This document shows, one piece after another, positions 596-16,226 of a stretch of 33,914 bases of DNA (positions within the stretch are counted from its first letter, which is position 1; each line of letters starts with the position of its first letter). The stretch spans positions 2,251-36,164 of the forward strand of contig CAZRBF010000003.1 in the NCBI GenBank assembly GCA_964598195.1, given 5' to 3'. Below the pieces are notes generated by a model that was not told the origin of the DNA, made no database searches, and worked only from the letters and a program-made list of their open reading frames with translations. A program made the position numbers and the translations under genes. Origin of the DNA: an uncultured Candidatus Peribacteria bacterium (GTDB lineage Bacteria > Patescibacteriota > Gracilibacteria > BD1-5 > UBA2023).

Positions 596-1954
596 ATGGA
601 AACAAATATCATTTTCTCACTCTTTATAGCAACTGTCCTCGGAGGACTTGTGGGATTGGAACGAGAAATGTCTGGAAAAACATACTCCAATGAGACGCAC
701 GATATACACTTCTGAGGGGTGAGATCATACGCACTGATAAGCCTCCTTGGGGCACTTTGTGCATGGATAGACACACTGTATTCTACCCATCTTTTTGTGC
801 TCGCATGAATGGGACTCAGTGCGCTACTTATAGTCATTTCGTACGCCTACACAGCTTTTCAAAGAGATTCCATAGGAGTAACAAGTGAGTATGCCGCATT
901 TATCGTCTATTTTCTGGGGATCATAGCCATGATGGGAAATTATATCCTTTCTGTTGTGCTTACTATTTTTCTCATGGTCATCCTCTCTTCAAAAGAGCAT
1001 TTTCAAACCATTCAATCAAAGATTACTCGGGAAGAGTTTCAGAATGCCATCAAGTTCGGAGTTATCGCCTTCATCATACTCCCCCTTCTTCCCAGTGCAA
1101 AATTTTCTTTTAGTGATATAGCAACATTTTTTGGTATAGCCACATCATTTGACTTTCGACTCTGGACGATGGATTTCTTTAATCCTTATGGAATCTGGTT
1201 CTTCGTTGTTGCTATGTCTGCTATCGAATTCATCGCCTACATTCTCTCAAAGGTTCTTGGGGATCGAGGTGGTATCATAATATCCTGAGCTGTTTGAGGA
1301 CTGGTATCATCAACAGCCGTTACGGCAACCATGACACAAAAAAGTAAAGACTCACCAAAAAATCGATCTTCCTATATAGTTGGAACTCTCGTGGCAACTT
1401 CTATAATGCTTATTCGAGTTATCCTCATCACTGCTGTTTTTGCTTTTGCCCTCCTAAAAACAATAGCCGTTCCCATGCTACTCATGTTGGTAGTAATGAT
1501 CAGCTTTATCGTATACCACTTTATCCGAGCCAAAAGCGAGACAAACGAAGTGGCAGTTCATATGGAAGAGGAGCTCAAAAGTCCATTTGAAGTGCTTCCT
1601 GCTATGAAATTCGCTCTTCTTATTCTTCTCATCAAATTCCTCTCTGCCATCGGAGTCACCTACAAAGATGTATTTGATCCCCAGATTCTCTATTATGTGC
1701 TCTGAATGGTCTCCTGACTTGCTGATGTAGATGCCATTACTCAAGACATGACTCAAAAAGCAAGTGAAAACGCGATTGCACCGCTCGTAGCAACCGTCAC
1801 CATTCTCATAGCTGTTATCTCCAATAACCTCGTAAAAGCCAGTATTGCATGGAGGCTTGGCGAACCGATCTACGGAAAAAAGGTCATGACCGCTTTTGCA
1901 TTTTCCATATTTGCTGGAGTGCTTGGAATTACAGGAATGTGGATAATGGGATAA
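596..1954 (+). CDS. MgtC/SapB-family membrane protein with DUF4010 domain
   Basis: ATG at 596. Track ORFs 809.., 1331.. and 1748.. share one frame and join through six in-frame TGA (713, 806, 1286, 1295, 1703, 1712). Motifs: GGLVGLEREMSGK, GVRSYALISLLGA, SGAVGGLVSSTAVTATM, VSGLADVDAITQDM. I checked codon by codon from 596 to 809 and found no TAA/TAG. TAA stop at 1952-1954. Confidence 0.75.
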
Positions 1955-1967
1955 TTACAAGAGTATT

Positions 1968-2603
1968 TTATTTTTTACATCCACATCCCTTATCCGTAAA
2001 AAATGGAACTTCTGGTGCATTGCATGCAAATTTAATATTGCTACACATATTGGCATCTCGGCTAATATAGCGCATTCCCGCTACTTCATCGGTCAAGTAG
2101 GATATATCGGTTTGGACAAGATTTTGAAGAAAGAGAAGTGCATATTTCATGCGGTCATTCATCATCTCCTGTGTAAGTGTCTTTGGAATCGCCCCATTCA
2201 GAGAAAGAGTATTCAATCGGGTAACTATTCGATCATTGAGCGCATTCAATCGTGCAAGTCGATCACTGGCAGTAAATCCAGCAATACGAACGATAAACAC
2301 GTCATACTGTCGTTTCAGTGAATTCTGGAGTCTCTCCGAAAGAACGGCTGAGGATCACTCCTCTGTAGCCTTACATTCACCATCATGAGCAAATGTCGCA
2401 GCGCTTTCCTGCGTCATGACACACATGTTAGAAAAGGTCTTATAAATCGGATAGCAAGGCGCTCGTATACACTGCACCTGCACTTTGGCACACACCGGTG
2501 TGTAGTCCATAGTACACATCATCAGGTCCGAAGTCGCTGCTGAAACCGAAGATGTCACCAAATAACCCGCAAGAGCCAATAAAAAAAGAAAAAAGTGTTT
2601 CAT
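1968..2603 (-). CDS. Secreted cysteine-rich protein with Kazal-like domain
   Basis: Track ORFs 2355..2603 and 1968..2300 are in the same frame and are separated only by TGA at 2355-2357, giving 211 aa. Signal peptide MKHFFLFLLALAGYLVTSSVSA. Six-Cys module C-x7-C...YTPVC...KTFSNMC...HDGEC resembles Kazal YxPVCG/TYxNxC/HxGxC. A second Cys cluster sits at the C-terminus (CSNIKFACNAPEVPFFTDKGCGCKK). TAA stop at 1968-1970. Confidence 0.6.
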
Positions 2604-2757
2604 ATGGGATAAATATAAAAAATAAGCTCAGTCTACCTCTTTAAAACGAATGCCAAGCAAAAAAGTGACAAGAATCTTTTTTTCCTCGCTAAATAACGCA
2701 TTTCTATTTGGCTTTTCTCTGTCTAGAGCGAGTAACAATCCTAATTTAAAAAAAATT

Positions 2758-2816: not shown

Positions 2817-2893
2817 GCATCCATAGCTCAACTGGATAGAGTAGCGGTCTTCGAAGCCGTTGGTTGTAGGTTCGACTCCTACTGGGTGCACCA
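2817..2893 (+). tRNA. tRNA-Arg (anticodon TCG)
   Basis: Hand-folded cloverleaf. Acceptor GCATCCA/TGGGTGC, D arm GCTC..GAGT with A20, anticodon stem GCGGT/GCCGT, loop CTTCGAA (anticodon 2851-2853). T arm GTAGG-TTCGACT-CCTAC, discriminator A, encoded CCA. Confidence 0.9.
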
Positions 2894-3012: not shown

Positions 3013-3060
3013 CTTTACAGGATTTAGATAACCTCAAAGAAAAGAAACTTTTTTACACCC

Positions 3061-3144
3061 GCCCGGGTGGTGGAATGGTAGACACGTACGCTTGAGGTGC
3101 GTATGCCGAAAGGTGTGTGGGTTCAAGTCCCATCTCGGGCACCA
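3061..3144 (+). tRNA. tRNA-Leu (anticodon GAG), class II with long variable arm
   Basis: Acceptor GCCCGGG/CTCGGGC, 3-bp D stem GTG/CAC, anticodon stem TACGC/GCGTA, loop TTGAGGT (anticodon 3094-3096). Long variable arm, T arm GTGGG-TTCAAGT-CCCAT, discriminator A, encoded CCA. Confidence 0.9.
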
Positions 3145-3159
3145 AAGAAAACCAAACAA

Positions 3160-3187
3160 CTCACGTGAAAACGTGGGTTTTTGTTTT
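3160..3187 (+). terminator. Intrinsic terminator after tRNA-Leu
   Basis: CTCACGT-GAAA-ACGTGGG hairpin with a GAAA tetraloop, followed by TTTTTGTTTT. Confidence 0.6.
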
Positions 3188-3204
3188 CTTTGTGCACGTT
3201 AGAT

Positions 3205-3365
3205 GATGGGACTTGAAGCCGTAGCGACACCTCCAAGCTCGAAGAGCGAGGAGGGAAAAACGTGCCCAAAGGCACGTTTCGTCGCAAGGAGTTCTGAAGT
3301 ACGAGTATCCGCGTCCGAATGGACCGGTACGACATTCTGAAGAAAAAGTCCCATCTCGGGCACCA
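3205..3365 (+). ncRNA. Candidate structured RNA element E1 (unclassified), ending in a copy of the tRNA-Leu 3' end with CCA
   Basis: GATGGGACTT (3205-3214) pairs with AAGTCCCATC (3346-3355). Internal helices: GCGAC/GTCGC, CCTCC..GGAGG (with inner GCTC-GAA-GAGC), AAACGTGCC-CAAA-GGCACGTTT and GTCC-GAAT-GGAC. The same architecture recurs in E2 with compensatory changes. A terminator follows. Strand is inferred from the downstream T-runs. I did not recognise a family. Confidence 0.45.
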
Positions 3366-3366
3366 A
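3346..3366 (+). repeat. Perfect 21-nt direct repeat of the tRNA-Leu 3' end (att-like)
   Basis: AAGTCCCATCTCGGGCACCAA at 3346-3366 is identical to 3125-3145 (T-loop end, T-stem 3' strand, acceptor 3' strand, CCA plus one nt). Confidence 0.85.
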
Positions 3367-3378
3367 TTTGATAAAAAC

Positions 3379-3409
3379 ATATCCTTCGTGAAAACGAGGG
3401 ATATTTTTT
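3379..3409 (+). terminator. Intrinsic terminator after element E1
   Basis: ATATCCTTCGT-GAAA-ACGAGGGATAT hairpin followed by a T-run. Same GAAA-loop design as the tRNA-Leu terminator. Confidence 0.6.
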
Positions 3410-3430
3410 AGCAAAAAGATACAAGAGAGA

Positions 3431-3584
3431 GATGGGACCTGAAGCCGTAGCAACCCTATCGACGAAGGAGATAGGTAAATATGCCTTGAATGGCATATTT
3501 TGTTGCAAGGAGTTTTCTGAAGCGAGAGTTCGTTTGAAAAACGAAATCGACACTGAAGAAAAAAAGTCCCATCTCTCTCCCCAA
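3431..3584 (+). ncRNA. Candidate structured RNA element E2 (diverged paralogue of E1) with degenerate tRNA-3'-end tail
   Basis: GATGGGACCT (3431-3440) pairs with AAGTCCCATC (3564-3573). Helices: GCAAC/GTTGC, CCTATC..GATAGG, AAATATGCC-TTGAA-TGGCATATTT and TTCGTT-TGAAA-AACGAA. Conserved joints CAAGGAGTTTTCTGAAG and CGACACTGAAGAAAAAAA. The tail TCTCTCCCCAA is a decayed version of TCGGGCACCAA. Confidence 0.4.
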
Positions 3585-3600
3585 TAAACACTATTATTTT

Positions 3601-3628
3601 TTGATTTTGATGAAAATCTCCCTACACT
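3601..3628 (+). promoter_or_regulatory. Possible promoter of the RhuM gene
   Basis: TTGATT (3601-3606), 16-nt spacer, TACACT (3623-3628), 40 nt before the ATG at 3668. Pattern only. Confidence 0.3.
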
Positions 3629-3667
3629 ATGACTTTGTGAGTTCTAAAAAATTTCCAAATTTCTCCT

Positions 3668-4693
3668 ATGCAAACCATTGTTTATACCGATCCATCAACG
3701 AATCTTAATGTCTCTGATGTTATATTTTTCCACGACACCATCTGGATGACTCAGACACAGATGTCCAAACTTTATAATACTGATGCGAGTGGTATTTCTC
3801 GGCATATTACAAAAATCTATACTGATGGCGAGCTTGATGAACTCAAGACTTGTACTGATGACAGTAAATTGCAAAAAATGCAAAATACGCAAAATAGCTT
3901 CAAGAAGCCAAAAAAGTACTATAATCTTCAAATGATTATCGCAATTGGATTTAAGGTGAATTCTCCTCAGGCAACCAGTTTTCGTACCTGGGCAAATACT
4001 ATAATCGATGAATATTCACGGACTGGGTATGCGCTTGATGATGACCGTCTCAGATGAGGTCAAACTTTCTCTCCGAAGAGAGACTACGACCGACTCATGG
4101 AACGAATTCGAGCCATCAGATTTGATGAAAGAAATATTTATGAGAAAATCAAAAATCTTTTCACGACCGCCAGTGATTATGATAAAACGAGTAGCCGAGC
4201 TATTGAATTTTTTCAAACAATCCAAAATAAGTTCCACTACGCAATTGTTGGTATGACTTCCCCAGAGATTCTTATGGATCGTGTGAATAGCAATAAGCCA
4301 GCTCTCGGGATGGTACATCACACAAAGAAAAATATAACTCTCTCGGAAGCAACTATAGGGAAAAATTATCTGCTGGAGGGAGAATTACGTAAACTGTATC
4401 TTCTTTGTGAACAATTCTTCGCATTCGCAGAGCTTCAGTATGCCTATGAAAGGGATTTGACTATGCAAGACTGGGTAACTTATCTCGATGAACTTTTACG
4501 AATGAACAAGCTTGAAATACTCCCGGGAAAATGAAATGTTAGTCGAGAAAAAGCAGAAGAATATGTGAAAAAACAAATGGCAGAATACCAGCAAAAATGG
4601 GGATCACTCGAAGTATATATCGAATGAGCAGAGTATTTAATAGACCGGGGAAATGTAAAAAATCTGAGTGATCATATGAAGCTAATTATTTAA
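3668..4693 (+). CDS. RhuM-family (virulence-associated) protein
   Basis: Track ORFs 3668..4057 and 4097..4534 are in frame. In-frame TGA at 4055, 4532 and 4625 extend the gene to TAA at 4691-4693 (341 aa). RhuM-like motifs: IWMTQTQMSKLYNTDASGISRHITKIYTDGELDE, YYNLQMIIAIGFKVNSPQATSFRTWAN, GYALDDDRLRGG, HYAIVGMTSPEIL, LEILPGKGNVSREKAEEYV. Confidence 0.8.
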
Positions 4694-4810
4694 CCTTTAC
4701 TATGCAGTAAACGCACTGTCTATTATCCAATCCTATATAGATTTCTTTTGTTCTCTTAAATAGACAAATCGTTTATCTAGAATTCAACTTTGAGAAAGAT
4801 AAGACTAGGG

Positions 4811-4839
4811 AAAAAACTGCATGAAAATTGCAGTTTTTT
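4811..4839. terminator. Hairpin terminator flanked by A- and T-runs (can act in both directions)
   Basis: AAAAAACTGCA-TGAAAAT-TGCAGTTTTTT, followed by a tandem CACATTTTTT x2. Confidence 0.5.
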
Positions 4840-4929
4840 CACATTTTTTCACATTTTTTTCCGTTTTTAAAAGTTCTCCCTATAATCAAAACCATTCGTA
4901 ATATTTTTACCTCTTAAGTTTTCGTTTCT

Positions 4930-5703: not shown

Positions 5704-5821
5704 CATTTCTCCCCTCTTGACATAATTCCTTTATTTTCCCATCCACAATGGAACACTTAATATAAGGCCTGCTCGAAAAATGAAATGAAGACATTCACTA
5801 TTGACTGTCAATCTCACATTT

Positions 5822-14252: not shown

Positions 14253-16226
14253 ATGGCCAATCAAGCACTTCTCGAACTTATCGCAAAAAACTACACGGGC
14301 GATGCAGGGTGATACGAACAAGATCTTTTAAAACAAAAAGATGTGTCCATTGTTGAGGTGGCCCCTCCAGGAAATACTATTTCCAATATTTCAGAGGAAA
14401 TAACGCCTCATCCGATAGAACCAATCTCAACCCAAGAAGCATCCACCGATGATACTACATCCAAGAAGCTCACCAAACAAGAAGCAGACGAGATCCGTCA
14501 GGGTGAGAAAGAATATCGCGAAGCGCTCGCTTTTGTAAAAGACGCGATTGCTCCTTCTATGATGAAGATCGATGCCTCCAAGCTTCAGATCGGAGACACA
14601 TATATTCGCACATTTTTTACGTACGCTTACCCCGACTTTCTCGAAGGAAACTGGCTTGGACCACTGATTAACTGGGATGTAAAGTTCGACATGTCCATGT
14701 TTATCTATCCGGTTGAGTCGGCATATATTATGAAGTACCTTCGAAAGCGTCTCACAGAGCTCAATTCTGAGAGAAGTCTCAACGCTGATCGTGGACTTAT
14801 AAACGATCCCGCGCTCGATGCTCAGGTACAAGACGTTGAGGAACTTCGCGCGAGTCTTACTCGAGGTCAGGAACGGTATTTTCATTTCTCTATATACATC
14901 AGCATCTACGGGGAATCAGAAGAACAGATCAAGAAGCTCTCGAATACGCTCGACACCCTTCTCTCTGGACGCAATATCCTGACAAAACAGGCATTTCTCC
15001 GATCAGAACAAGGGTTTGTTGCGACAGGCCCATTTGCTCGAGATGAAGTCGGAGTATATAGAAATATCTCGACAAAGGGACTTTCGACCACTTTCCCATT
15101 CACATCCAACTCACTTTCGCAAGATGATGGGATTCTCTATGGAATCAATACTCACAATAACTCCCTCATAATATTTGACCGATTTCGCACAGAAAATGCC
15201 AATATGGTCGTATTTGCGAAGTCCGGATGAGGAAAGTCTTTTGCGGTCAAGCTCGAAATACTCCGATCACTCATGCTCGGGACCGATGTTATAGTCCTCG
15301 ATCCAGAAAATGAATACAAAACTCTCGTCGATACTGTTGGTGGAACGTACGTCAATATCAACCTCAATTCCAATGAACGGATCAATCCATTTGATCTGCC
15401 AAGAGCTCTCAAGGATACAGAAAGTAAACCTGGAGATCTTTTGCGTGGTGCGGTTATCAATCTTCTCGGTCTCATGAATCTCATGCTCGGTAAGTGTACG
15501 CCATCCGAAGCGTCTATTCTAGAAAAAGCCATTATCACCACCTATTCCCTCAAGGGGATCACCATGAGTGATGATGATATTTCTGGAAAAGAAGTTCCGA
15601 TCATGAAGGACCTCTACTCGGTACTCGAAACCATGGACGGAGCAAAAGGGGTTTGTGAACGACTCGAAAAGTATGTCACTGGTATATTTGCCGGAGTATT
15701 CTCAGAACCAACCAATATTAATCTCACTGACGGACTCGTCGTGTTCTCGGTTCGTGATCTCGATGATATTCTTCGTCCGATCGCCATGTATATGCTCCTA
15801 GGGTATGTATGGAATGTCACTCGAAGCTCTCTTAGAAAACGTGTTCTCGTCGTGGATGAAGCATGGAATATTATGCAACACGAAGACAGTGCCAAGTTCC
15901 TCTTTGGTCTCGTAAAACGCGCTCGTAAATACGGCCTCGGAGTCACCACTATTACTCAGGATGTTGAGGACTTCATGGGAAGTTCCGAAGGAAAGGCTAT
16001 CGTTACCAACTCCTCGATTCAGCTTCTCTTGAAGCAATCACCCGCATCCATCGATGTGCTCCAAAATGTTTTCAAACTGACAGAGCAGGAAAAATATATC
16101 CTCCTCAATTCTGCTGTTGGACAAGGCCTCTTCTTTGCTGGAACTGAACACGTCGGAATCCAGGTTCTCGCATCATACTTTGAAGAGCAGGTTATCACCA
16201 CAAATCCAAATACTCCTAAAACATAA
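14253..16226 (+). CDS. VirB4/TraC-like type IV secretion-family ATPase (DUF87/AAA-like)
   Basis: ATG at 14253. Track ORFs 14343..15230 and 15273..16226 are in one frame, joined by TGA at 14310 and 15228 (657 aa). The second TGA lies inside Walker A: VVFAKSG-G-GKSFAVK. Walker B region VLVVDEAWNIM. TTITQDVEDF. TAA stop. Confidence 0.8.

What the first reader, a model, noticed from the sequence alone, without database searches (positions are those of the whole stretch)
3146..3584. Two diverged tandem ~220-bp units 3' of tRNA-Leu, each containing a ~150-nt element with compensatory stem changes: candidate new structured RNA
Unit A (3146-3366) and unit B (3367-3584) have the same layout. Each has a GAAA-loop hairpin plus T-run, then an element starting GATGGGACYTGAAGCCGTAGC and ending CTGAAGAAAAA(AA)GTCCCATC, then a tRNA-3'-end-like tail. 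The 10-nt element ends are complementary and form a closing helix. Three internal helices are kept in both copies although their sequences differ. These are GCGAC/GTCGC vs GCAAC/GTTGC, CCTCC..GGAGG vs CCTATC..GATAGG, and AAACGTGCC-CAAA-GGCACGTTT vs AAATATGCC-TTGAA-TGGCATATTT. The unpaired joints, CAAGGAGTTYTCTGAAG and CGACA(Y)(T)CTGAAGAAAAA, are conserved in sequence. Conserved joints with covarying stems are typical of a functional RNA fold rather than decaying duplicated DNA. I could not match it to the conserved cores I know for tmRNA, RNase P, SRP, 6S, or the hammerhead CUGANGA..GAAA core. Each copy is followed by its own terminator. I did not find a convincing promoter, so the elements may be processed from tRNA-Leu read-through transcripts.
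Basis: seen in the sequence. Interest (0 to 1): 0.8.

Follow-up and report, generated by a model that had tools for sequence, protein, structure and literature searches.

The report
Folded repeat element capped by tRNA tail
Behind a tRNA-Leu gene of a Gracilibacteria-type bacterium lie two copies of a roughly 150-base non-coding element with a well-supported fold, each ending in a copy of that tRNA's 3' end; the element matches no known RNA or mobile-element family and differs in copy number, order and position between related genomes.

Summary
Units A and B each hold an intrinsic terminator, a ~150-nt element (E1 3205-3355, E2 3425-3579) and a tRNA-Leu 3'-end copy.

I found five more copies in three related Gracilibacteria data sets. 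All seven share one fold: a closing helix, a three-way junction and an irregular hairpin. Three G.A/A.G tandem mismatches are invariant. 22 of 52 pairs change on both sides, against 10.6 +/- 2.2 in shuffles (0/500). Wobble pairs point to the + strand. Rfam, ARAGORN, phage and plasmid searches gave nothing.

- The tail is an exact 20-nt repeat of the tRNA's T-loop-to-CCA segment, and the element's 5' arm is its inverted copy.
- A sister element, F, does the same at tRNA-Arg in a relative.
- Copy number, order and location differ between genomes.
- A ~60-nt sub-domain is swapped between otherwise near-identical copies.
- There is no promoter, and no recombinase gene in the window.

Best reading (0.45): a new structured RNA carried in tRNA-operon trailers, in cassettes that spread by recombination at tRNA 3'-end repeats. 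A folded-DNA recombination site is the main rival. Function is unknown.

The parts
3061..3144 (+). tRNA-Leu(GAG). Its last 20 nt (3125-3144, AAGTCCCATCTCGGGCACCA) are the sequence repeated at the end of unit A.
   Evidence: ARAGORN; Rfam tRNA; repeat family D1
3145..3204 (+). X1: A-rich spacer, GAAA-loop terminator hairpin (3158-3179), T-run, and a short 5' flank of E1 (GTGC at 3192-3195 can pair with GCAC of the tail).
   Evidence: terminator scan; I3, I5; sequence
3205..3355 (+). E1 (alpha type). P1 is 3205-3212 with 3348-3355. The junction segment TTGAAGCCGTA is at 3213-3223. The helix CTGAAG 3294-3299 with CTGAAG 3337-3342 holds a G.A tandem. A CGAG/CGACA internal loop and a distal hairpin follow.
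3224..3285 (+). Hypervariable P2 three-way-junction domain of E1 (P2 GCGAC/GTCGC, P2a CCTCC/GGAGG, P2b AAACGTGCC/GGCACGTTT).
3346..3365 (+). Exact direct repeat of the tRNA-Leu 3' end (T-loop 3' part, T-stem 3' strand, acceptor 3' strand, ACCA). It overlaps the P1 3' strand of E1.
   Evidence: D1
3366..3424 (+). X2: spacer, GAAA-loop terminator hairpin (3379-3404), T-run. The same X2 directly follows tRNA-Leu in L003 and L041.
3425..3579 (+). E2 (beta type). The extended closing helix is 3425-3438 with 3566-3579 (14/14 bp). The P2 domain is 3450-3506. The helix TTCTGAAG (3515-3522) pairs with CTGAAGAA (3553-3560).
   Evidence: I4
3574..3583 (+). Diverged tail of unit B (TCTCTCCCCA instead of TCGGGCACCA). 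Its first six bases pair with GAGAGA at 3425-3430.

Best explanation
E1 and E2 belong to a previously undescribed, lineage-restricted family of structured non-coding elements. The functional strand is the + strand, the same as the tRNAs.

**Fold (shown).**
- A closing helix P1 leads into a three-way junction.
- One arm is a hypervariable sub-junction (P2, P2a, P2b).
- The other arm is an irregular hairpin. Its base is the helix (UU)CUGAAG/CUGAAG(AA), which contains a sheared G.A tandem. A second G.A tandem lies in the CGAG/CGACA loop.

**Most likely mode of action (inferred).** The element is expressed as RNA without its own promoter. Transcription would come from co-transcription or terminator read-through from the tRNA-Arg/tRNA-Leu promoter. 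The invariant purine-rich junctions and G.A tandems would act as a binding platform for a protein or another RNA, and the swappable P2 domain would set specificity.

**Role of the tRNA tail (partly shown, partly inferred).** The tRNA 3'-end copy and its inverted partner are primarily a DNA-level feature. Each cassette (terminator + element + 20-nt tRNA 3' end) is bounded by repeats of the T-loop-to-CCA segment of the adjacent tRNA. Cassettes are gained, lost, reordered and recombined between genomes by recombination at these repeats. Once a copy is no longer next to the tRNA, its tail evolves to lengthen P1 instead (E2, E5). The repeat boundaries and the variation between genomes are shown; recombination at the repeats as the cause is inferred. 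The same tail could also supply a tRNA-type 3'-processing signal, which is inferred.
For: **Structure.**
- Seven copies were aligned to a covariance model.
- 22 of 52 pairs change on both sides, against 10.6 +/- 2.2 in shuffles (0/500). The covariation score is 0.359 against 0.165. Slid controls reach at most 45% paired, against 81% for the real structure.
- RNAalifold independently predicts 46 pairs, 20 of them with compensatory changes.
- In my hand-fitted alignment, 96.7% of cells are canonical in the 53 non-G.A pairs, 23 pairs change on both sides, and 6 G.A/A.G positions are invariant.

**Specific compensations in the CUGAAG helix.**
- E6 has CUGAGG with CCGAAG, so A-U becomes G-C.
- E7 has UCUCGAAG with CUGAGAGA, so U-A becomes C-G.
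- Beta copies have a UU insertion matched by an AA insertion.

**Strand.** There are 12 G.U cells against 1 A.C cell. The terminators and tRNAs are on the same strand.

**Not a known family.**

**Cassette behaviour.**
- L003 has tRNA-Leu | X2-E3-tail | X1'.
- L025 has two units with other terminators.
- L043 has one unit, plus element F ending in the tRNA-Arg 3' end. F is inserted exactly between tRNA-Arg and the sequence that follows tRNA-Arg in the window.
- L010 has X3-E4 at a non-tRNA site.
- E2's tail pairs 14/14 with its 5' flank.
Against: - No transcript evidence is available.
- No promoter-like site precedes either element, and each is preceded by a good intrinsic terminator. Expression may therefore be low.
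- Much of the variation in P2a/P2b is module replacement. Copies that are 94-99% identical elsewhere are only 26-44% identical there. Part of the pair-change count is therefore not independent stepwise compensation.
- The seven sequences are related and partly mosaic, so the shuffle statistics overstate significance.
- The alignments were fitted to the structure.
- Only about four source genomes or populations are known. The strict pattern scan found one species among the GTDB representatives.
- Sheared G.A tandems and C-GAA-G mini-hairpins are also stable in single-stranded DNA (my own knowledge). The fold could therefore act at the DNA level.
- E5 is a chimera with a broken P2, and E3 has two mismatches in P1.
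Confidence: 0.45

Rival explanations
1. The fold acts as DNA. The element would be a folded single-strand recombination site, comparable to an integron attC site or the folded attP of CTX-type phages. Its stem (5' arm plus tail) rebuilds a double-stranded copy of the tRNA 3'-end target. The 200-220 bp units would be minimal cassettes, inserted and excised at tRNA 3' ends by a tyrosine recombinase encoded elsewhere.
For: - Each unit is bounded by a 19-20 nt direct repeat running from the tRNA T-loop to CCA, for two different tRNAs.
- The 5' arm is the inverted copy of that core (I1, I2, I4; for F). L049 has TGGTGCCC right after the terminator.
- Cassette order is permuted between genomes: X2-E is first in L003 and second in the window.
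- X3-E occurs as a unit at two different sites.
- Structure is conserved while the central part is variable, as in attC.
- Many contigs break at this locus.
Against: - No integrase, transposase or Rep gene is in the 34-kb window or next to any copy.
- The attC signature sequences (RYYYAAC / GTTRRRY) are absent.
- The cassettes carry no cargo other than a terminator.
- About 45 junction and loop bases are invariant, including three G.A tandems. That is more than known folded-DNA sites need.
- The distal copies (E2, E5) lack the tRNA core to the right of GTCCCATCTC.
Confidence: 0.25
2. The element is a selfish palindromic repeat of the MITE, REP/BIME or BOX type, with no function of its own. Hairpin potential would come from its inverted-repeat origin and from templated correction of quasi-palindromes. 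The modular make-up would come from recombination among copies.
For: - It has a terminal inverted repeat of 8-14 bp.
- It has a modular mosaic structure, with alpha/beta 3' halves combined with four P2 domain types.
- Presence or absence varies between relatives, and there is a second genomic site.
Against: - No short target-site duplication is present.
- There are only 2 copies in 34 kb and 7 in 103 kb of related DNA searched with the model.
- Non-palindromic junction sequences are invariant, while the neighbouring terminators and spacers differ almost completely between loci.
- Compensatory changes occur in the CUGAAG helix, which is not part of a simple palindrome.
- Orientation is always that of the tRNA operon.
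Confidence: 0.15
3. The element is a new self-cleaving or self-processing ribozyme that cuts tandem or read-through transcripts into unit-length RNAs, as hammerheads do in satellite and retrozyme repeats.
For: - It has a compact three-way junction with invariant purine-rich strands (GAAG, AG, A-run) and G.A tandems next to the junction.
- It has a CUGAAGA...GAAG arrangement around P1 that superficially recalls a type II hammerhead.
- It occurs in tandem repeats.
Against: - No hammerhead, twister, pistol, hatchet or other ribozyme model matches even at E <= 10.
- Mapping onto the hammerhead core fails. The CUGAAG needed for the core is engaged in a covarying helix. Position 15.1-16.1 would be G/A rather than A-U, and position 17 would be G.
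- No candidate cleavage site is conserved.
Confidence: 0.07
4. The units are non-functional debris: decaying scars of repeated integration of larger elements, or of unequal crossing-over, at tRNA-Leu.
For: - Partial tRNA 3' ends downstream of tRNA genes are the classical scars of integrase-mediated integration (my own knowledge).
- The region downstream of the array differs between genomes. The RhuM gene is present only in the window, and the flanks of L003, L043, L050 and L052 are unrelated.
Against: - The beta 3' halves are 95-99% identical in three or more genomes whose flanking non-coding DNA is 70-90% identical.
- Helices are maintained by paired changes.
- No remnants of phage or island genes lie within any unit.
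Confidence: 0.05

Closest known systems
Genomic islands and prophages integrated by tyrosine integrases into tRNA genes (T-loop class of att sites)
   Same: There is a direct repeat of the tRNA segment from the T-loop to the 3' end on the far side of the insert. Tandem arrays form at one tRNA, the downstream region is variable, and two different tRNAs are used (Leu and Arg).
   Different: The whole unit is 170-220 bp, with no integrase or any other gene. The insert carries an inverted copy of the core and a conserved multi-helix fold. The distal copies lack the core's right half.
Integron attC sites and folded attP of CTX-type phages (single-stranded DNA recombination sites)
   Same: Inverse-core and core repeats flank a structured, sequence-variable centre. 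Structure is more conserved than sequence. Cassettes sit in one orientation next to a fixed primary site, their order is permuted, and occasional secondary sites are used.
   Different: No IntI or Xer gene is nearby, and there are no RYYYAAC/GTTRRRY or dif-like motifs. The cassettes carry no ORF. The element has far more invariant unpaired bases than an attC site.
Hammerhead ribozyme (type II topology) and other three-way-junction ribozymes
   Same: It is a three-way junction closed by the 5'/3' helix, with purine-rich junction strands, G.A tandems, CUGAAGA next to P1, and occurrence in tandem repeats.
   Different: The core does not map and no Rfam hit was found. CUGAAG pairs with a second CUGAAG, and no UH cleavage site is present.
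tRNA-linked or tRNA-like small RNAs matured by tRNA-processing enzymes (mascRNA from MALAT1, bacterial YrlA, 3'ETS-leuZ trailer RNA)
   Same: It lies in a tRNA transcription unit without its own promoter. Its 3' end is identical to a tRNA acceptor 3' strand plus CCA. E2 and F form 13-14 bp stems followed by NCCA.
   Different: It has no cloverleaf, D-arm or T-loop mimic. The acceptor-like pairing is incomplete in E1, E3, E6 and E7. Neither ARAGORN nor the Rfam tRNA-clan models match the element itself.
Modular bacterial intergenic repeats (BOX, Correia/NEMIS, REP/BIME)
   Same: It is small and non-coding, with a modular mosaic make-up, terminal inverted repeats and stable predicted RNA structure. 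It is present or absent between strains.
   Different: Copy number is very low. It is restricted to tRNA 3' ends (one exception), has no short target duplication, and has long invariant non-palindromic junctions.

Membership tests
Any Rfam 15 family (including hammerhead, twister, pistol, hatchet, tmRNA, SRP, 6S, RNase P, YrlA, HEARO) | Covariance-model score at or near the family's gathering threshold | tested here: not met
   Only the two tRNAs pass. The best other hits score 26 bits or less against thresholds of 40-114 bits and lie on the terminator region.
Hammerhead ribozyme | CUGANGA and GAAA core strands flanking stem II, an A15.1-U16.1 pair, and a UH cleavage site between stems III and I | tested here: not met
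   I mapped the core by hand on the sequence. CUGAAGA and GAAG flank P1, but 15.1/16.1 would be G/A and position 17 would be G. The CUGAAG is engaged in a helix with compensatory changes.
tRNA / tmRNA / tRNA-like gene | Cloverleaf or tRNA-like domain with paired acceptor stem, T-arm and T-loop | tested here: not met
   ARAGORN finds only tRNA-Arg and tRNA-Leu. The elements hold only the 3' strands of the T-stem and acceptor. The 5' acceptor strand is absent in E1. E2 has a 14-bp stem plus CCCA but no T-loop.
Integrase-type integrative element at a tRNA gene | Direct repeat of the tRNA 3' segment at the distal end of the insert | tested here: met
   There is a 20-nt exact repeat at 3125-3144 and 3346-3365. 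The same holds for tRNA-Arg in L043, at 2841 and 3014.
Integrase-type integrative element at a tRNA gene | Integrase (tyrosine or serine recombinase) gene inside or beside the element | tested here: not met
   The units are 170-220 bp with no ORF. Pfam scans of the window proteins scanned (10 of about 30, including all those without obvious function) show no recombinase, transposase or RT. None is listed among the precomputed Pfam families for the called genes of L039-L049. A gene elsewhere in the genome cannot be excluded.
Integron gene cassette / attC site | R'' RYYYAAC and R' GTTRRRY boxes, an imperfect palindrome, and an adjacent intI with attI | tested here: not met
   The ends are GATGGGAC / GTCCCATC. 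No intI is in the window. Only the general architecture (inverse core, structured centre, core) is shared.
MITE | Terminal inverted repeats plus a short target-site duplication, and many dispersed copies | tested here: inconclusive
   An inverted repeat of 8-14 bp is present. No 2-10 bp duplication flanks any copy. There are 2 copies in the window, and the model finds 7 copies in 103 kb of related DNA. One non-tRNA site is known. Whole-genome copy number is not testable here.
Retron msr-msd / type III toxin-antitoxin RNA array / IS200-IS605 omega RNA | Adjacent RT, ToxN-type toxin, or TnpB/IscB gene | tested here: not met
   Neighbours differ between loci: RhuM, a PD40 lipoprotein, a conserved Patescibacteria hypothetical protein, and a glycosyltransferase. 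None belongs to these families.

The most novel reading that the evidence does not exclude
These would be a new kind of mobile non-coding cassette that targets tRNA 3' ends. Its conserved fold, as RNA or as folded single-stranded DNA, would itself be the active part of the insertion machinery. For example, it could present a copy of the tRNA target to a host recombinase or guide recombination. The swappable P2 domain would set specificity. Elements E (tRNA-Leu) and F (tRNA-Arg) would be two members retargeted to different tRNAs.
Probability: 0.2. Interest if true: 0.85.

Novelty: categorically new. Interest (0 to 1): 0.62.

Why it matters
Gracilibacteria and their relatives have ~1 Mb genomes with very little non-coding DNA, and no lineage-specific structured RNA or mobile element has been characterised in them to my knowledge.

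This is a ~150-nt element with an intricate, well-supported fold, three invariant G.A tandems and a hypervariable exchangeable sub-domain. It is always tied to the 3' end of a tRNA gene and matches no known family.

If it is an RNA, it is a new class produced from tRNA operons without a promoter of its own. If it acts as DNA, it would be a gene-free cassette system that uses tRNA 3' ends as its docking site. That would extend the folded-DNA recombination principle known from integrons and CTX phage to a new target and phylum.

Either outcome is directly testable with RNA-seq, read-level population analysis and simple in-vitro assays.

Limits on its importance: it is known from only a few closely related genomes, and no function is established.

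Tried and rejected
**Searches that found nothing.**
- Rfam found only the two tRNAs, at gathering thresholds and at E <= 10.
- IMG/VR pattern scans for the junction motifs, the 3' half, the tRNA-Leu core and the P2b hairpin gave only chance hits in coding or high-GC DNA.
- blastn against the phage and plasmid collections gave no match.
- The genome and metagenome pattern scans also gave 1 + 30 chance hits in coding DNA (L002 and 30 of the 33 loci L004-L036; all except L010, L015 and L025), which I discarded by inspection.
- I searched the protein database with a six-frame pseudo-protein of E1 and E2, hoping to catch spurious ORF calls across other copies. Nothing was found.
- Exact-protein look-ups of window genes gave only short contigs that do not reach the locus, or no record.

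**Readings considered and rejected.**
- Small ORF behind the AAGGAG motif: the reading frames of E1 and E2 are not conserved, and there is no AUG (by inspection).
- Origin of the element body from tRNA-Leu or tRNA-Arg: apart from the tail, local alignments are not better than shuffles (17-102 of 300 shuffles reach the score). GAAGCCGT is shared with the tRNA-Arg anticodon arm.
- P2 domains as guides against other loci: no complementary targets were found in the DNA held.
- Hammerhead mapping: rejected (see the membership test).
- Synteny through the gene downstream of E7: relatives (L050-L052) have neither tRNAs nor the element there.
Full report
**Setting.** The window has 40% G+C. It carries about 2.6 times more ORF length when UGA is read as a sense codon (18,077 vs 7,009 aa in ORFs of at least 100 aa). 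The RhuM-family gene at 3668-4693 needs UGA = Gly. The closest public DNA is a Candidatus Gracilibacteria MAG. It is an ordinary chromosomal stretch with RecA, aminoacyl-tRNA synthetase, TopA and DnaX genes. tRNA-Arg(TCG) lies at 2817-2893 and tRNA-Leu(GAG) at 3061-3144.

**Checking the observation.**
- The two ~220-bp units exist as described.
- Each has an A-rich spacer, a GAAA-loop hairpin with a T-run (3158-3179 and 3379-3404, both called by the terminator scan), and a ~150-nt element.
- E1 runs 3205-3355 and E2 runs 3425-3579.
- A tail follows each element.
- Both elements fold much better than shuffles (z = -5.4 and -8.1).
- Nothing in Rfam 15 matches, even at E <= 10.

Three things had to be corrected or added:
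1. Unit A's tail is an exact 20-nt copy of the end of tRNA-Leu (AAGTCCCATCTCGGGCACCA, 3125-3144 = 3346-3365). This is the stretch from the last bases of the T-loop to CCA. Unit B's copy has diverged after GTCCCATCTC (D1).
2. The 5' end of each element is the reverse complement of the same tRNA region (GATGGGACTTGAAGCC vs GGGTTCAAGTCCCATC, 94%, I2). The 'closing helix' is therefore an inverted repeat of the tRNA core.
3. The terminators precede the elements. No terminator was found after E2 and no promoter-like site before either element.

**Homologues.**
- One scan each of the GTDB species representatives and of the JGI metagenomes used junction-motif patterns. They returned the Gracilibacteria MAG UBA9566 (L003, identical to L015) and two contigs from sister metagenomes (L010, L025). 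The other hits were chance matches in coding DNA.
- A second route went through homologues of the glycosyltransferase gene upstream of tRNA-Arg. It gave more tRNA-Arg/tRNA-Leu loci, among them L043 with a more divergent copy (E7).
- In total there are seven copies (E1-E7).
- A covariance model built from them finds only these seven in 103 kb of related DNA, and only E1 and E2 in the window.
- Nothing was found in IMG/VR, phage or plasmid collections.

**The fold.** All copies share the same architecture:
- P1 (GAUGGGAC/GUCCCAUC) closes the element.
- A junction strand YU-GAAG leads to a short CC/GG helix.
- That helix opens into a three-way sub-junction: P2, P2a and P2b.
- An AAGGAG segment follows.
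- Next comes an internal loop CGAG/CGACA with a second G.A tandem, then a distal hairpin.
- An A-run leads back to P1.

The CUGAAG helix is supported by independent compensations:
- CUGAGG/CCGAAG in E6 (A-U to G-C).
- UCUCGAAG/CUGAGAGA in E7 (U-A to C-G plus added pairs).
- A UU insertion matched by an AA insertion in all beta copies.

The pair statistics are as follows:

| Measure | Observed | Control |
|---|---|---|
| Pairs changed on both sides, model-fitted alignment | 22 of 52 | 10.6 +/- 2.2 in shuffles, 0/500 reach it |
| Covariation score | 0.359 | 0.165 in shuffles |
| Cells paired | 81% | 34-45% in slid structures |
| Canonical cells in the 53 non-G.A pairs, hand alignment | 96.7% | 83.4% in shuffles |
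| G.U cells vs A.C cells | 12 | 1 |

The wobble-pair bias means the + strand is the folded one.

Caveats: there are only seven related, partly mosaic sequences, and both alignments were fitted to the structure.

**A hypervariable, exchangeable sub-domain.**
- Outside the P2 domain, copies fall into alpha (E1, E6), beta (E2-E5, identical 3' halves) and E7 types.
- Within a type the scaffold is 94-99% identical, yet the ~60-nt P2 domain is only 26-44% identical.
- The same P2 domain occurs on different scaffolds (E6 alpha and E3 beta, 90.6% over 53 nt).
- E5 is a chimera of two types with a broken P2.
- The P2b hairpin AAAGCCAACGATTTGGCTTT is shared by E4, E5, E7 and the tRNA-Arg element F.
- Part of the 'covariation' is therefore module replacement. 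The replacements always restore a helix, two hairpins and, in three types, a G.A-flanked GAA loop. I cannot explain this domain. It found no complementary target in the DNA held.

**Cassette behaviour at tRNA 3' ends.**

| Locus | Arrangement |
|---|---|
| Window | tRNA-Leu, X1-E1(alpha)-tail, X2-E2(beta)-diverged tail |
| L003 | tRNA-Leu, X2-E3(beta)-tail, X1'-like terminator, unrelated genes |
| L025 | tRNA-Leu, X4-E6(alpha)-tail, X3-E5(beta), no tRNA tail |
| L043 | tRNA-Leu, X4-E7-tail, own terminator |
| L041 | tRNA-Leu, X2, then about 30 nt without an element before the contig ends |
| L010 | X3-E4 directly after a segment homologous to window 5725-5805; in the window that site is empty |

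- In L043 a different 172-bp insert (F) separates tRNA-Arg from the sequence that follows tRNA-Arg directly in the window.
- F ends in an exact 19-20 nt copy of the tRNA-Arg 3' end.
- Its 5' arm (CACCTGTAGGAGT) is the inverted copy of that end.
- It folds into a 13-bp stem closing two or three hairpins (z = -4.7).
- The architecture 'inverted core, structured body, core = tRNA 3' end' is thus reused at two tRNAs.
- In the more distant L049, the terminator of tRNA-Leu is followed by TGGTGCCC, again the inverted 3' end, before the contig stops.
- Seven contigs start or end at or just after tRNA-Leu or inside an element. This fits repeats or strain heterogeneity there.
- The DNA beyond the array is not syntenic between genomes. 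The RhuM gene, window 3576-4842, is absent from L025. Relatives found through the gene downstream of E7 have no tRNA or element.
- No recombinase, transposase, reverse transcriptase or Rep gene was found in the window or beside any copy.

**What the tail is.**
- The tRNA-proximal or single copies (E1, E3, E6, E7, F) keep an exact tRNA 3' end, but their 5' flanks pair with it only partly.
- The distal copies (E2, E5) have lost the tRNA sequence to the right of GTCCCATCTC. Their tails instead pair with their own 5' flanks (E2: 14/14 bp).
- I read this as follows. The exact tail is maintained by DNA-level events (insertion, duplication or conversion at the tRNA repeat). What is selected in the element itself is a long closing helix.
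- A uniform tRNA-minihelix mimic is not maintained, which weakens the idea that the tail is primarily an RNA-level tRNA mimic.

**Interpretation.**
- *Shown:* a selected fold on the + strand, no match to known families, and cassette-like variation bounded by tRNA 3'-end repeats at two tRNAs.
- *Inferred, best (0.45):* a new structured RNA expressed from the tRNA operon by co-transcription (F) or terminator read-through (E). The G.A-rich junctions would be a binding platform and P2 a specificity module. The RNA is carried in cassettes that spread by recombination at the tRNA repeats.
- *Main rival (0.25):* the fold works as single-stranded DNA, as in attC sites or the CTX attP. The stem would rebuild the tRNA target for a recombinase encoded elsewhere. 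This explains the inverted core, the permuted order and the secondary site. It has no recombinase, no cargo and too many invariant unpaired bases.
- *Lesser rivals:* a function-less palindromic repeat (0.15), a new self-cleaving ribozyme (0.07; the hammerhead core does not map), or integration debris (0.05).

**Comparison and verdict.**
- The element shares single features with tRNA-targeting integrative elements, attC/CTX-type folded sites, three-way-junction ribozymes, tRNA-linked small RNAs and modular intergenic repeats.
- It fails a tested defining feature of each (see the membership table).
- I therefore rate it as lying outside known kinds.
- The claim is moderated by the narrow distribution (a handful of closely related Gracilibacteria), the lack of expression data and the unknown function.

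Noticed in passing
L043 2859-3032: Element F is a 172-bp insert between tRNA-Arg and its usual downstream sequence. It ends in an exact copy of the tRNA-Arg 3' end, has an inverted copy as its 5' arm, and shares a 20-nt hairpin with E4, E5 and E7. It is absent at tRNA-Arg in the window, L025, L041, L046, L048 and L049.
   Followed up: partly
window 3576-4842: The RhuM-family gene (3668-4693, in-frame UGA codons), together with a second copy of a promoter-like stretch (3590-3625 resembles 4850-4890), is absent from L025. There E5 abuts the homologue of window 4843-4908. This is a gene-sized insertion or deletion right behind the array.
   Followed up: partly
window 5725-5805: An ~80-nt intergenic module is 81% identical in L010, where it lies downstream of an unrelated gene and is immediately followed by the X3-E4 cassette. 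In the window it is followed by the small palindrome TTGACTGTCAA. Its nature is unknown.
   Followed up: partly
window 596-2748: An MgtC-like membrane protein gene and adjacent DNA lie between the glycosyltransferase gene and tRNA-Arg. They are absent from L025, where the glycosyltransferase gene is followed directly by tRNA-Arg.
   Followed up: no
window 3027-3060 (also L025, L041, L043, L046, L048): A conserved ~33-nt leader, GATAACCTCAAAGAAAAGAAACTTTTTTACACCC, precedes tRNA-Leu in all close relatives, whatever the distance to tRNA-Arg. It may be a processing or promoter element.
   Followed up: no
window 2853-2860, 3215-3222, 3441-3448: The octamer GAAGCCGT occurs in the window only in the tRNA-Arg anticodon arm and in the 5' junction of E1 and E2; it is also in F. 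The wider alignment to tRNA-Arg is not significant (about 7% of shuffles reach the score).
   Followed up: yes
L049 5115-5175: In a more distant relative with a different tRNA-Leu T-stem, the tRNA-Leu terminator is followed by TGGTGCCC. This is the inverted copy of the tRNA's last 8 nt. The contig then ends.
   Followed up: no
window, whole: UGA is used as a sense codon (probably Gly, genetic code 25). ORF content more than doubles under table 25. Standard table-11 gene calls fragment most genes, which also blocked exact-protein look-ups.
   Followed up: yes
window 14253-16226: There is a VirB4/TraG-like P-loop ATPase gene (Pfam P-loop_TraG, AAA_10), as in the type IV secretion or competence-like systems common in Patescibacteria. 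It is not linked to the element.
   Followed up: no
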